A stretch of DNA of 14,780 bases. It comes from a virus. Lineage: Duplodnaviria > Heunggongvirae > Uroviricota > Caudoviricetes. Where the stretch lies: the IMG/VR virus record IMGVR_UViG_2706794665_000005; one strand, 5' to 3'. Position numbers and translations under genes: made by a program. The notes below the pieces were generated by a model, which was not told the origin of the DNA, searched no databases, and worked only from the letters and a program-made list of their open reading frames with translations. Below are positions 10,089 through 13,064 of the stretch, one piece after another (within the stretch, counting starts at the first letter, position 1; every line of letters starts with the position of its first letter).

Positions 10089-10291
10089 AACCTCACTCCC
10101 AGCGGACGACGGCGACGTCGGGTTGTCCCCAGTACCGACTCCGCATCATTGATCGCCCGGTTAAGCTCATCCAGAGAAGCCTCCGTATATTCAATTCTGC
10201 GACCATCTTTCTGGACAGACACCACCCGTTTACCGGTTAATAAATCAAGGCGCGCCTGACGCAGCGCCTGCAGTTCAGCGACTGTAACCAT
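10085..10291 (-). CDS. W: Head completion / head-tail joining protein gpW
   Basis: 68-aa [46 protein letters not shown]..., lambda W-like and the same length. Confidence 0.9.
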   Translation of the reverse strand: MVTVAELQALRQARLDLLTGKRVVSVQKDGRRIEYTEASLDELNRAINDAESVLGTTRRRRRPLGVRL

Positions 10292-12203
10292 TCACTCCTC
10301 CGGACAGCTTCGCTGCCAGTTCTTTAAGGGTTGGCCGGGTCGTCTCTTCTTCCCGGGATTTTGCCAGTACAGCCAGATCAAGCTGCCAGCGTTGCACGGA
10401 CACACGTAATGCCGCATAGGCATACACCAGGCAGTCCAGCGCTTCGTTACGCCGCTTTTTGTTATCCCACAGCAGACGCATCTTTCCTTTTTCCCACTTC
10501 TCCACAAGCTCTTCCGCGACCAGTTGCTGCGCCTCTGTCTGCGAAAAAATCTCCGGATCATCAGGAAAACGGATGGCATACGACGTGGCTTCATCCGCAG
10601 GAGTGGGATCGGCTTTCATACGGGCATAGAGAATTTCTTTTGCGGTGTCCGTCCCCACTTCACACAGATACACGCCCCGCTGATTGCGGGTTTTCGGCAT
10701 GGTGATCACCGGCTTGCCATAGACAGATGCGCCTTTTACCGGCAGCACCCGGAAAACACCGTGTTTTTTTGACCTCTGATAGACAATTTCACCATCGATC
10801 CCCCCGGTGTCCCAGCAGACACGGGAAATGGTCATTTCGGTTCCGTCTGCATGGCAGTATTTTTTGTTGATCGCCGCATCCACACGTAACAGCGTCTCTT
10901 CCTCATCGGGACGGCCCATAATGATGATTTTATCCACCAGAAAAGCTTCCTCTCCCGGTGCCCATCCCCAGACATACATCTCAAAACGGTTTCGCTGCGA
11001 GTCAATGCCCGCCGTCAGATAAACCACCCGGGCTGGCACCGCCGCCGTGTAATGCACGACCTTATCCATCAGTACCTGGTGATCGAGTTTTTCGCCCACG
11101 GCCTCTTCCCAGGTCTCGCCCAGCGTGGTGTTCACAAAGGTTTTCAGGCCGTTGGGATCTTTCAGTGCATCCAGCCAGTCATAGACTATCTGTACCCAGG
11201 TGGTGAACGGACTGTACGCCGTCCAGATATGGAACGTGATGGAGCGCGGCGGCGGAATTTCATTATCCGCGGCGCTGAAAAACGTCAGACCGTCACGGGT
11301 CCACATCCCCGTGTTTTCACAGATCCACCGCCCGTTGCTCTGGTCAAGCTCAGACTGATGGATCACGCAGCCATGATGTTCACAGAGGTAGAAAACGCTT
11401 TCGGGGCTGTCCTTCTCCCATTTAAGGCCAAAAGGCGTGGATTCATCGCCAAATTTCAGATACTGCTCCTCCCCACAGTGTGGGCAGGGCACATAAAAAC
11501 GCATGAAATGCGCCGACTCGTTGGCCGCTTTTTCGATCTGGCAGGTGCCTTTGATTTTAGGCGTCGAGCCGCGAATGGATTTGGGCCATACAGAGCCCTC
11601 AATACGTTTATCCCCAAGCAGGGTTGGCGACCCCTCTTTTTCGACATCCGGTTCGAACGAGGAAAGTTCGTCATAGCAGACCACGTCCACGGATTTTTCA
11701 CGGTAGTTTTTAGCGGCAGCCCCGCCCAGGCACCAGAAGCCCACGCCCGATGAAAAACGTTTCAGCGTGAGGGTATTATCACGATGTTTACGCCCAAACC
11801 ACGGTGCAAGATCGAGTAAAACCGGCACATCCCTGATCGTGGGTTCCACATGAGATTTCATAAAATCTTCAGCAGCAGAATCCGTGGGCTGGAAAAGAAG
11901 GCTGTTGCGTGATTTATGCTCAATAAAATAAGCCTCCACTCCCAGCAACATCTTTGTATAACCAACACGGGCAGATTTAATCAGATTAACAGTGCGGATC
12001 CGGTCATTCCCCATGCTGTTCATGATGGCAACCTGAAACGGCAGTGTTTCCCACCGCCCCGGGGTGTAAGATGACTCTTTCGGAAGGTAATAATGTCGAT
12101 CTGCCCACTGAACTGTCGTCAGAGGGACAGGAATTTTTAGCGCAAGGAGGCCGGTTGCTATCGCTCCTGCAGAATTAGCCGCCCTCAGTTCGTCTGAAAT
12201 CAT
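10275..12203 (-). CDS. A: Terminase large subunit gpA
   Basis: Track ORF 10275..12245 is over-extended. ATG at 12201-12203 (GGTGGA SD) gives [13 protein letters not shown]...[28 protein letters not shown]..., colinear with lambda A, and overlaps the Nu1 3' end by 29 nt (26 nt in lambda). Confidence 0.95.
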
Positions 12204-12723
12204 CAATCCACCTGCGCACATTCTCACCGGCTTCAGAAGCCACATCGGATGCTTTCGCGATTTCAGTTTTCACAGCATCAAGATGTACGGGTGATATATC
12301 AGGGTATTTACGCTGCAGTGTCTGAGGGACACGGACAAGGATCCCTGATATATTCTGTGCCACTCGCTGAAAGATGTAGGTAAATAACTCCGTCTCGAGG
12401 ACAAGGCCTTCCTCACGAGCATTTTTCAGCTCCTGTGCATCGGCCTGTGCCTTCGTCAGTCGGTAACGTTCGTAATCAATGGTGCCGGGCTGAAGGTCTG
12501 ATTCGCTGGCAGCCCTCAAATCCTCGATCTCTTTACGGAGTTTTTCGTTTTCAATATCAGCTTCCCTCTGCGCATACCACTGAATGGCAGCAGTTGTATC
12601 AAAAACTGATTCAGTCCCTTTCCCTCCACCAGAAACTAGTGGTAACCCCTGACTCTGCCAGGCGGTGATGGTCCTGACATCAACGCCAAAAATATCGGCC
12701 AGTTTTTTCTTATTGACGTTCAT
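12175..12723 (-). CDS. Nu1: Terminase small subunit Nu1 (winged-HTH cosB-binding N-terminus)
   Basis: 182-aa [45 protein letters not shown]...[15 protein letters not shown]...; lambda Nu1-like, with a different putative recognition helix (lambda has IRTIQNWQEQG). Confidence 0.92.
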
Positions 12724-12737
12724 ACACTCCCCCGGGA

Positions 12738-12855
12738 ACCAGAAAGGATCTGAAAATGGCGTTTTCTAACAAAAACAGCCTTTGTCAGATCCTTTTATAT
12801 TTTTAAAATTCTATTGATAATCAATCAGTTAAAAAGAAGAAGAACGGATCTGATT
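12738..12855 (-). promoter_or_regulatory. cosB: three Nu1-binding R elements (R1 about 12741-12759, R2 about 12779-12798 inverted, R3 about 12834-12855) flanking an IHF site
   Basis: Minus-strand repeats TCAGATCCGTTCTTC (R3), TCAGATCCTTTCTGG (R1) and an inverted copy in R2. Same spacing and orientation pattern as lambda R3-I1-R2-R1, but core CAGATCC replaces lambda CGTTTCC; each element contains GATC. Confidence 0.6.
12819..12831. promoter_or_regulatory. IHF binding site (I1-like) between R3 and R2
   Basis: aatcaatcagtta matches the IHF consensus WATCAANNNNTTR exactly, in an AT-rich context, at the position of lambda I1. Confidence 0.55.
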
Positions 12856-12892
12856 TTTCCCTAAAAATTTTCATAAATAGCGAAAACCCGCG

Positions 12893-12904
12893 AGGTCGCC
12901 GCCC
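12893..12904. other. cosN cohesive-end site (12-nt overhang GGGCGGCGACCT on the phage top strand)
   Basis: Plus aggtcgccgccc is the reverse complement of GGGCGGCGACCT, identical to the lambda cohesive end. Flanks match lambda: CGCGGGTTTTCGCTATTTATGAAAATTTT on the Nu1 side and ...GGTCCTTTCCGG...GTTACG on the other side. Confidence 0.88.
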
Positions 12905-12937
12905 CGTAACGGCCCGGATCGCCGGAAAGGACCCGCA

Positions 12938-12960
12938 AAAATGATAATGGTTATCATTTT
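12938..12960. repeat. Perfect 10-bp-arm palindrome aaaatgataa-tgg-ttatcatttt, 33 bp from cosN on the genome right-end side
   Basis: Arms are exact reverse complements with a 3-bp spacer; lies where cosQ or another packaging-termination or protein-binding element would be expected. Confidence 0.5.
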
Positions 12961-13064
12961 CAATGTAGTCCGGTTTCTTCCACCATCGCACCGGACAGGC
13001 GACTATGAGGGGACAACGCCGCGCTCCGTTAACGCGGTAAACCCCGGTGTGTATCGTTTTTGAT

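What the first reader, a model, noticed from the sequence alone, without database searches (positions are those of the whole stretch)
12738..12904. Lambda-identical cosN but divergent cosB R elements, each carrying a Dam GATC site
cosN and the immediately adjacent about 35 bp are essentially lambda. The three R elements keep the lambda arrangement (R3, IHF site, inverted R2, R1), but their core is CAGATCC rather than lambda CGTTTCC. Nu1 here has a different putative recognition helix ([11 protein letters not shown] versus lambda IRTIQNWQEQG), suggesting a phage-21-like or other non-lambda packaging specificity. All three R cores contain GATC, so terminase binding at cosB could be sensitive to Dam methylation or hemimethylation, which would couple packaging initiation to replication status.
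Basis: partly seen in the sequence, partly recalled or inferred. Interest (0 to 1): 0.45.

Follow-up and report, generated by a model that had tools for sequence, protein, structure and literature searches.

The report
Gifsy-1-type phage packaging site with GATC
This is the DNA-packaging start site of an E. coli lambda-like prophage of the little-studied Gifsy-1 type: all three docking sites for its small terminase protein contain GATC, the sequence the host Dam enzyme methylates, but whether methylation affects packaging is untested.

Summary
On the minus strand the window holds a complete lambda-like cos. The 12-base cohesive end and the first 41 bp are identical to lambda, and cosQ is present. 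R3 (12852-12837), a perfect IHF consensus (12819-12831), inverted R2 (12786-12801) and R1 (12752-12737) follow, then the small terminase (TerS/Nu1) gene. Each R core is CAGATCC.

The site is neither lambda- nor 21-specific. It belongs to the class of Salmonella phage Gifsy-1. That cosB layout is already noted in the literature, and the Gifsy-1 TerS DNA-binding domain is in the PDB (7LXS, 84% identical here).

Across 116 distinct TerS/cosB pairs, the recognition-helix type tracked the R3 core in every pair scored:
- QN with TTTCC
- ER with TGTCGG
- DR with TGTCAG
- T/S plus a small residue with GATCC

Only two pairs carried a single-base variant of the core.

GATC occupies bp 55-58, which includes bp 56 and 58, known critical contacts in lambda/21. 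Dam methyl groups would therefore sit in the recognition surface. Dam sensitivity is plausible but untested. Neither this prophage nor Gifsy-1 encodes a Dam-family enzyme.

The verdict is a new member of a known kind. The GATC feature was not mentioned in any paper searched, and it is testable.

The parts
12928..12934 (-). cosQ (GGGTCCT), the packaging-termination element, left of cosN
   Evidence: It is identical to the lambda right end, together with the flank CGGGTCCTTTCCGG(C/T)GATCCG. PMC4669245 describes a conserved 7-bp cosQ.
12893..12904 (-). cosN cohesive-end sequence GGGCGGCGACCT (p1-12). p1-41 (12904-12864) is identical to lambda.
12855..12887 (-). AT-rich spacer between cosN and R3 (the I2 segment of lambda, p18-50)
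   Evidence: Alignment with lambda, 21 and Gifsy-1. The I2 extent is taken from the PMC4856287 figure legend.
12837..12852 (-). R3, CAGATCCGTTCTTCTT. The core starts at p53, and GATC occupies bp 55-58.
   Evidence: The register is the same as lambda and 21 R3.
12819..12831 (+). I1, an IHF-consensus site AATCAATCAGTTA between R3 and R2
   Evidence: It is the only perfect WATCAANNNNTTR match in the window. Its position is equivalent to the annotated I1 of phage 21.
12786..12801 (+). R2, inverted relative to R3 and R1: CAGATCCTTTTATATT
   Evidence: Inverted repeats I1 and I2.
12737..12752 (-). R1, CAGATCCTTTCTGGTT, exactly 100 bp from R3
   Evidence: Direct repeat D1.
12175..12723 (-). Small terminase subunit gene (TerS, Nu1 family), 182 aa. 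Recognition-helix residues 16-24, VRTITAWQS, are encoded at 12678-12652.
   Evidence: PF07471 at E = 1.6e-86. The protein is 82% identical to phage 21 gp1. Its DNA-binding domain is 84% identical to the Gifsy-1 domain in PDB 7LXS.
10275..12203 (-). Large terminase subunit gene (gpA homologue), overlapping the end of the TerS gene
   Evidence: ORF list and RefSeq annotation of the identical prophage in E. coli 09-02E.

Best explanation
This is the functional cos region (cosQ-cosN-cosB) and small terminase gene of an E. coli lambdoid prophage. Its packaging recognition belongs to the Gifsy-1 class of the lambda/21 Nu1 family.

**Mechanism, inferred from lambda and 21.** TerS winged helix-turn-helix domains bind R3 and the inverted R2 across an IHF-induced bend at I1, with R1 as an accessory site. 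This anchors the large subunit so that it nicks cosN 12 bases apart.

**Specificity, shown by covariation.** Helix residues T20, A21 and S24 read the core A-GATCC-(G/T)TTCT. Lambda uses Q20, N21 and E24 on TTTCC. Phage 21 uses E20, R21 and S24 on TGTCGG.

**Dam, inferred.**
- GATC is an integral part of the recognition core, at bp 55-58.
- Host Dam therefore places N6-methyl groups on A56 (top strand) and on the adenine opposite T57, inside the surface the recognition helix contacts.
- The phage must package DNA made in Dam+ hosts and carries no Dam of its own.
- My committed reading is that TerS of this class accepts the methylated form and tolerates mixed methylation states. Methylation would then have at most a quantitative effect and would not act as an on/off switch.
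For: - **Anatomy.** The layout and register are identical to lambda and 21.
- **Covariation.** In 116 distinct helix/upstream pairs (110 of which could be scored), QN went with TTTCC in 48 of 49, ER with TGTCGG in 24 of 24, DR with TGTCAG in 2 of 2, and T/S plus a small residue with GATCC in 35 of 36.
- **Lineages.** The GATCC class includes at least six lineages: the E. coli window type, the TG type including phage SerU-LTIIb, L058, L157, Salmonella Gifsy-1 and Providencia.
- **Depth.** The DNA-binding domains of these lineages are only 69-84% identical to one another. That is as diverged as they are from phage 21 (65-73%), yet GATCC is kept while bp 53 and 54 vary.
- **Contrast.** Lambda-, phi80- and PhiR5_1-type cosBs almost never contain GATC.
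- **Known contacts.** Critical contacts in lambda/21 are bp 56, 58 and 59. Residue 24 is assigned to bp 56, and NMR contacts cover bp 55-63 (PMC9026076; PMC4669245).
- **Intact and common.** The prophage looks complete, from integrase to tail fibres. This cosB occurs in 223 of 5426 complete E. coli genomes.
- **No phage Dam.** No Dam-family gene is present here or in Gifsy-1.
Against: - Neither this prophage nor Gifsy-1 has binding, cleavage or packaging data for its cosB that I could find.
- The covariation is among related sequences, so the pairs are not independent events.
- S24 is shared with phage 21 and bp 59 (C) with lambda. Partial cross-recognition, as N15 terminase shows on lambda DNA, cannot be excluded.
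- Tolerance of methylation is inference only.
- Three natural variants lack GATC in one R site: R2 in L177 and in Providencia L208, and R3 in E. coli C311. Their viability is unknown.
Confidence: 0.62

Rival explanations
1. Packaging is gated by Dam, as at the P1 pac site. TerS of this class binds, or licenses cosN cleavage, only in one methylation state of the R-site GATCs. Initiation would then be timed by, or restricted to, DNA of a given replication or methylation history. One example would be telling fresh concatemers from fully methylated chromosomal prophage cos sites.
For: - GATC is kept in the R cores across deeply diverged members while the flanking bp 53 and 54 drift.
- The methylated adenines fall at bp 56 and 57, inside the genetically and NMR-defined contact segment (PMC9026076, PMC4669245).
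- Residues 20 and 21 are small (T/S; A/G/S/T) in place of the Q-N or E-R of other classes, which could make room for a methyl group.
- There is a precedent. P1 pac has GATC-containing hexamer repeats flanking an IHF site, and its cleavage is regulated by adenine methylation (PMC10028697 citing Sternberg and Coulby).
- E. coli genomes often hold several lambda-like cos regions, with a median of 2 and up to 11 places matching the cos-TerS query.
Against: - There are no experimental data.
- Conservation of GATC cannot be separated from conservation of the whole GATCC binding core.
- P1 supplies its own Dam. This prophage and Gifsy-1 do not. The only methylase here is a PF01555 YhdJ/CcrM-like enzyme.
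- From memory of supplier technical notes, lambda virion DNA is only about half methylated at Dam sites. A strict requirement at three sites would therefore be costly.
- Variants lacking GATC in R2 or R3 exist.
Confidence: 0.22
2. The site has no separate specificity. It is functionally a phage 21 (or lambda) cosB variant, and the terminases cross-package.
For: - TerS is 82% identical to 21 gp1 overall, and 89% identical in residues 56-160.
- S24 matches phage 21.
- bp 57-59 (TCC) and the 3' half GTTCTTCTT match lambda R3 exactly.
- N15 terminase packages lambda DNA despite different R sites (PMC4669245).
Against: - Helix residues 20 and 21 and bp 55 and 56 differ from both phages.
- bp 56 is a proven lambda/21 discriminator.
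- Helix type tracked core type in every scored pair, with no mixed pairs; only two pairs carried a single-base variant of their core.
- Lambda and 21, which differ by a comparable number of positions, discriminate by more than 1000-fold.
Confidence: 0.12
3. The cos is a relic in a decaying prophage, and the repeats no longer function.
For: - Some copies carry lesions. L153 has a 100-bp R3-R1 deletion, and C311 has R3 CATATCC plus a mutated IHF site.
Against: - The prophage has a full set of lysis, terminase, head and tail genes plus integrase.
- The R cores are conserved across genera.
- From general knowledge, Gifsy-1 is an inducible, plaque-forming phage.
Confidence: 0.04

Closest known systems
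Salmonella phage Gifsy-1 cos and TerS (NC_010392; TerS DNA-binding domain in PDB 7LXS)
   Same: - The R core is the same. Gifsy-1 has R3 CCAGATCCGTTCTTCTT, R2 GCAGATCCTTTCT (inverted) and R1 GCAGATCCTTTCC.
- The order R3-I1-R2-R1 is the same.
- The helix is VRTVTAWQS against VRTITAWQS here.
- The DNA-binding domain is 84% identical.
   Different: - The Gifsy-1 cohesive end differs from lambda at bp 8, 9 and 11 (PMC4669245), whereas here it is identical to lambda.
- Gifsy-1 has an extra GATC 7 bp upstream of R1.
- The host genus differs.
- The annotated Gifsy-1 TerS is C-terminally shorter, 164 aa.
Phage 21 cosB and gp1
   Same: - It is the closest characterised TerS overall (82% identity).
- The cosB layout and the R3 register are the same.
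- S24 is shared.
   Different: - The R core is C(G/A)TGTCGG with no GATC.
- The helix carries E20 and R21 against T20 and A21 here.
- bp 55, 56 and 59 differ.
Phage lambda cos and gpNu1
   Same: - cosQ, cosN and p1-41 are identical.
- The R3 3' half GTTCTTCTT and bp 57-59 (TCC) are identical.
- The IHF site and R arrangement are the same.
   Different: - The R core is CGTTTCC, so bp 54-56 are GTT rather than AGA.
- The helix carries Q20, N21 and E24.
- TerS is only 56% identical.
Phage P1 pac site
   Same: - The terminase recognition site is built from repeated short elements that each contain GATC.
- The repeats lie on both sides of an IHF site (PMC10028697).
   Different: - P1 is a headful pac phage with unrelated PacA/PacB.
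- It has seven TGATC(A/G) hexamers inside pacA.
- Methylation dependence is demonstrated for P1 but not here.
- From general knowledge, P1 encodes its own Dam. None is present here.
Phage N15 and Monarch cosB
   Same: - It is another non-lambda, non-21 recognition class within lambda-like cos phages.
- The natural variant L153 has a single R site like N15.
   Different: - The N15 R3 is GAGGTTGTTGTT.
- The TerS helix is different.
- N15 has no I1, R2 or R1.

Membership tests
Lambda-like cos site (cosQ-cosN-cosB) | 12-base cohesive-end sequence with strong identity to lambda | tested here: met
   12 of 12 bases are identical, and p1-41 is identical.
Lambda-like cos site (cosQ-cosN-cosB) | Conserved 7-bp cosQ upstream of cosN | tested here: met
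   GGGTCCT lies at 12934-12928 and aligns with the lambda right end.
Lambda-like cos site (cosQ-cosN-cosB) | Complex cosB: three R repeats in the order R3, I1 (IHF), R2 (inverted), R1, with R3 at about bp 50-65 | tested here: met
   The R3 core starts at p53, as in lambda and 21.
Lambda-like cos site (cosQ-cosN-cosB) | Staggered nicking that gives 12-base 5' cohesive ends in virion DNA | not testable with these tools
   This needs virion DNA end mapping.
Nu1-type small terminase (Pfam PF07471) | Profile match above the curated threshold, and an N-terminal winged helix-turn-helix homologous to the solved gpNu1 domain | tested here: met
   PF07471 scores 288 bits against a cut-off of 30. PDB matches are 6HN7, 1J9I and 7LXS.
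Lambda packaging specificity | R core (C/T)(G/A)TTTCC with helix residues Q20, N21 and E/D24 | tested here: not met
   The core is CAGATCC and the helix carries T20, A21 and S24.
Phage 21 packaging specificity | R core C(G/A)TGTCGG with helix residues E20, R21 and S24 | tested here: not met
   bp 55, 56 and 59 and residues 20 and 21 differ. Only S24 is shared.
Gifsy-1-type cosB/TerS class | R core AGATCC(G/T)TTCT in R3, R2 and R1, with helix RT(I/V)-T/S-small-WQ-S/N | tested here: met
   The DNA-binding domain is 84% identical to 7LXS.
Gifsy-1-type cosB/TerS class | Mutual packaging with Gifsy-1, and discrimination against lambda and 21 DNA | not testable with these tools
   This needs helper-packaging or in vitro cos-cleavage assays.
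Dam-regulated packaging site (P1 pac type) | Repeated GATC-containing recognition elements flanking an IHF site | tested here: met
   The P1 description is in PMC10028697.
Dam-regulated packaging site (P1 pac type) | Phage-encoded Dam methylase | tested here: not met
   The only methylase is a PF01555 YhdJ/CcrM-like enzyme. No Dam-family gene is annotated in the whole E. coli prophage or in Gifsy-1.
Dam-regulated packaging site (P1 pac type) | Binding or cleavage that depends on the methylation state | not testable with these tools
   This needs biochemistry or dam genetics.

The most novel reading that the evidence does not exclude
TerS of the Gifsy-1 class reads the Dam methylation state of bp 56/57 in each R site. 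A cos site would then be licensed only in one epigenetic state.

This would let the phage time packaging. It could also distinguish newly made concatemers from fully methylated chromosomal cos sites of resident prophages with the same specificity.

It would be a cos-phage analogue of P1 pac regulation that relies on host Dam alone.
Probability: 0.2. Interest if true: 0.7.

Novelty: new member of a known kind. Interest (0 to 1): 0.4.

Why it matters
Packaging specificity in lambda-like phages is a textbook case of protein-DNA recognition, yet only the lambda, 21 and N15 specificities have been characterised.

This window shows that the Gifsy-1-type class is common. It occurs in about 4% of complete E. 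coli genomes, including ST131 strains, and in Salmonella, Providencia and other hosts. The class has a clean recognition code that extends the lambda/21 'tri1/tri2' picture.

Its recognition core carries the Dam target exactly at a base pair known to decide specificity. That makes one experiment simple and decisive: TerS binding and cos cleavage on methylated against unmethylated R sites. A Gifsy-1 domain construct already exists for it (PDB 7LXS).

If methylation matters, it would link prophage packaging, and the mobilisation of adjacent host DNA or satellites, to replication and epigenetic state.

Tried and rejected
- **Is the GATC excess in cosB meaningful on its own?** No. GATC density over the window is ordinary, 70 sites against 62 expected. 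The three sites are one motif repeated.
- **A phage-supplied Dam, as in P1.** The prophage methylase near the tRNA genes is PF01555 (YhdJ/CcrM-like), not Dam family. Nothing Dam-like is annotated in the full E. coli prophage or in Gifsy-1.
- **SeqA-type sequestration.** The GATC spacings are 59 and 41 bp. That is too far apart for paired hemimethylated GATC binding, which from general knowledge needs roughly 31 bp or less. I dropped this idea.
- **The R-like repeat left of cosN (12922-12939).** It is the cosQ flank. It is identical in lambda, so it is not class-specific.
- **Genome-contig scan with a TerS alignment.** It returned mostly lambda/phi80-type loci and lambda contamination. Only one GATC-class locus came back, a truncated Providencia contig.
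- **Isolated phages in INPHARED.** No record carries this exact cos and TerS at 88% DNA identity or better. Only Gifsy-1 and SerU-LTIIb share the class.
- **Literature.** No paper in the held library mentions GATC or methylation in cosB, and none cites 7LXS.
- **Structure prediction.** I did not run it, because an 84%-identical solved domain exists and the tools cannot model methylated DNA complexes.

Full report
**What is in the sequence.** The genes of this part of the window run on the minus strand.
- **cosQ side.** Read in that direction, the region begins with a stretch that aligns with the right end of lambda. It includes the 7-bp cosQ GGGTCCT at 12934-12928.
- **cosN.** Next comes the cohesive-end sequence GGGCGGCGACCT at 12904-12893. 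The first 41 bp after the nick are identical to lambda.
- **Repeats.** Three copies of an 11-16 bp repeat follow:
  - R3 is CAGATCCGTTCTTCTT at 12852-12837, with its core starting at phage position 53, exactly as in lambda and 21.
  - R2 is the same core inverted, at 12786-12801.
  - R1 lies at 12752-12737, exactly 100 bp from R3.
- **IHF site.** The only perfect match to the IHF consensus in the whole 14.8-kb window sits between R3 and R2, at 12819-12831.
- **Terminase genes.** A 182-aa Nu1-family small terminase gene starts 13 bp after R1, at 12723 (PF07471, E = 1.6e-86). It overlaps the large terminase gene.
- **GATC.** Each R core contains GATC.

**Where it comes from.** The region is 100% identical to a complete lambdoid prophage of E. 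coli 09-02E, which runs from integrase through tail fibres. This cosB occurs in 223 of 5426 complete E. coli genomes, including ST131 and APEC strains, and is unannotated there. No isolated phage in the phage collection carries it at 88% DNA identity or better.

**What class it belongs to.** The closest characterised TerS is phage 21 gp1 at 82% identity; lambda is 56%. The specificity-determining parts, however, differ from both:

| Phage | R core | Helix residues 20 / 21 / 24 |
|---|---|---|
| lambda, phi80 | CGTTTCC | Q / N / E or D |
| 21 | C(G/A)TGTCGG | E / R / S |
| PhiR5_1 | CATGTC(A/G) | D / R / T |
| this window | CAGATCC | T / A / S |

A distant DNA search found the same architecture in Salmonella phage Gifsy-1 and in E. 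coli phage SerU-LTIIb.
- **Gifsy-1.** R3 is CCAGATCCGTTCTTCTT, R2 is GCAGATCCTTTCT (inverted) and R1 is GCAGATCCTTTCC. Its helix is VRTVTAWQS.
- **Solved structures.** The PDB holds TerS DNA-binding domains of lambda (1J9I, 7LW0, 6HN7), 21 (7LWR) and Gifsy-1 (7LXS). The window's domain is 84% identical to 7LXS.

The window is therefore an E. coli member of an already recognised, but functionally uncharacterised, cosB/TerS type.

**Is it a real specificity class?** I collected cos and TerS loci from IMG/VR and from genome representatives. For every distinct pair, I compared the helix type with the R3 core.
- **Covariation.** Among 116 distinct pairs (110 of which could be scored), QN helices went with TTTCC in 48 of 49, ER with TGTCGG in 24 of 24, DR with TGTCAG in 2 of 2, and T/S plus a small residue with GATCC in 35 of 36.
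- **Exceptions.** The only exceptions were single-base variants of the same core.
- **Diversity within the class.** The GATCC class contains helix variants TA, TG, TS and ST, with residue 24 being S or N. It has very different cohesive-end sequences and hosts in at least three genera.
- **Depth.** Its DNA-binding domains are only 69-84% identical to one another. That is no closer than they are to phage 21 (65-73%).
- **What stays fixed.** Across this divergence, bp 53 varies among C, A, G and T, and bp 54 is A or occasionally T. GATCC(G/T)TTCT is kept in R3 and R1 and nearly always in R2.
- **Contrast.** Lambda-, phi80- and PhiR5_1-type cosBs almost never contain GATC, and the 21 class only rarely, 4 of 38 with a single site.

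Exchange of recognition helices is known to switch lambda and 21 specificity. Lambda and 21 also discriminate by more than 1000-fold (PMC4669245). By analogy, a distinct specificity is the best-supported reading, though the sequences are related and no packaging data exist.

**How it most likely works.**
- **Shown.** The layout, the register and the covariation.
[quoted passage not shown] The large subunit is thereby positioned to nick cosN.
- **Contacts, from the literature.** R3 bp 55-63 contact the TerS domain, bp 56, 58 and 59 are genetically critical, and residue 24 lies next to bp 56 (PMC9026076, PMC4669245).
- **Here.** GATC is bp 55-58. The Dam-target adenine of the top strand is bp 56 itself, and the bottom-strand target pairs with T57. 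The methyl groups would lie in the major groove under the recognition helix.

Methylation cannot be invisible to the protein in a structural sense.

**Dam sensitivity: for and against.**

For:
- The position of GATC within the contact segment.
- Conservation of GATC while the flanking bases drift.
- The small residues at positions 20 and 21.
- The P1 pac precedent: GATC-containing hexamers on both sides of an IHF site, with cleavage regulated by adenine methylation (PMC10028697).

Against:
- Conservation of GATC cannot be separated from conservation of the GATCC binding core.
- The three sites are one motif in three copies, and GATC density in the window is ordinary.
- Neither this prophage nor Gifsy-1 encodes a Dam-family enzyme, and the local methylase is PF01555, YhdJ/CcrM-like.
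- Natural variants have lost GATC in R2 (L177 CAGTTCC and Providencia CACTTCC) or in R3 (E. coli C311 CATATCC).
- From memory, phage DNA made late in infection is only partly Dam-methylated. A strict requirement at three sites would therefore be costly.

My committed reading is that TerS of this class accepts methylated GATCC and tolerates mixed states, with at most a quantitative effect. I give a true methylation gate about a 20% chance.

**Comparison and novelty.** The site works like lambda and 21 cosB, and it is a member of the Gifsy-1-type class. It fails the tests for lambda and for 21 specificity.
- **Literature gap.** No paper I could search mentions GATC or methylation in any cosB. 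I found no publication for 7LXS.
- **Verdict.** A new (E. coli) member of a known kind, with a previously unremarked and readily testable feature.

**Dead ends.**
- The genome-representative scan gave mostly lambda-type loci and lambda contamination.
- I dropped the SeqA-type idea because of the GATC spacing.
- The R-like repeat left of cosN is the cosQ flank, shared with lambda.

Noticed in passing
window 12943-12961: A Fur-box-like palindrome, GAAAATGATAACCATTATC, lies 8 bp upstream of cosQ. It matches the consensus GATAATGATAATCATTATC at 17 of 19 positions, against 0.01 matches expected by chance. The same palindrome is conserved at the lambda right end. I know of no assigned function.
   Followed up: partly
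L153 (IMG/VR UViG 2529293040_000025), cos region: This is a natural variant of the same prophage type with an exact 100-bp deletion between R3 and R1. It is left with one hybrid R site, no IHF site and no R2, and TerS starts at p82. This is the R3 x R1 unequal crossover that PMC4669245 proposes for the origin of N15's simple cosB.
   Followed up: partly
L177-L192 and L207 (SerU-LTIIb): The TG-helix subclass has nearly identical cosB sequences. However, it shows at least five different sequences at the cohesive-end position, for example GGGTCTGGGGAC, GGGTACGCGTAC and GGGACGGCAGAC. The differences include the left half, which PMC4669245 describes as conserved.
   Followed up: no
L177, L208 (Providencia alcalifaciens), L270 (E. 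coli C311): Individual R sites have lost GATC. R2 is CAGTTCC in L177 and CACTTCC in L208. R3 is CATATCC in C311, which also has a mutated IHF site. These variants could serve as natural tests of the GATC requirement.
   Followed up: partly
L007, L016, L026, L033 and others (IMG/VR hits to cosN): These are cos sites with lambda-identical cosN followed by TCCGGGATCCATGTCCGG and no Nu1-type gene. They are probably chromosomal-island (PICI) cos sites. They too carry a GATC, at about p46-49.
   Followed up: no
L005 13274-14323 (same prophage, outside the window): A PF01555 N6/N4 DNA methyltransferase (YhdJ/CcrM-like, not Dam) lies between the Q antiterminator gene and three tRNA genes. Its target sequence is unknown.
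   Followed up: partly
L219-L226, L233, L245, L246 (genome contigs): Lambda-identical Nu1 fragments sit on short contigs in assemblies of Kitasatospora, Paenibacillus, Oceanobacillus, Bradyrhizobium, Shewanella and others. They look like lambda DNA contamination of those assemblies.
   Followed up: no
E. coli genomes H56-H70 (for example NZ_CP126952): In many ST131/APEC-type genomes, the 901-bp cos-TerS query is split by about 760 bp that carry a YlcI/YnfO-family gene and a hypothetical gene. I did not map the insertion point.
   Followed up: no
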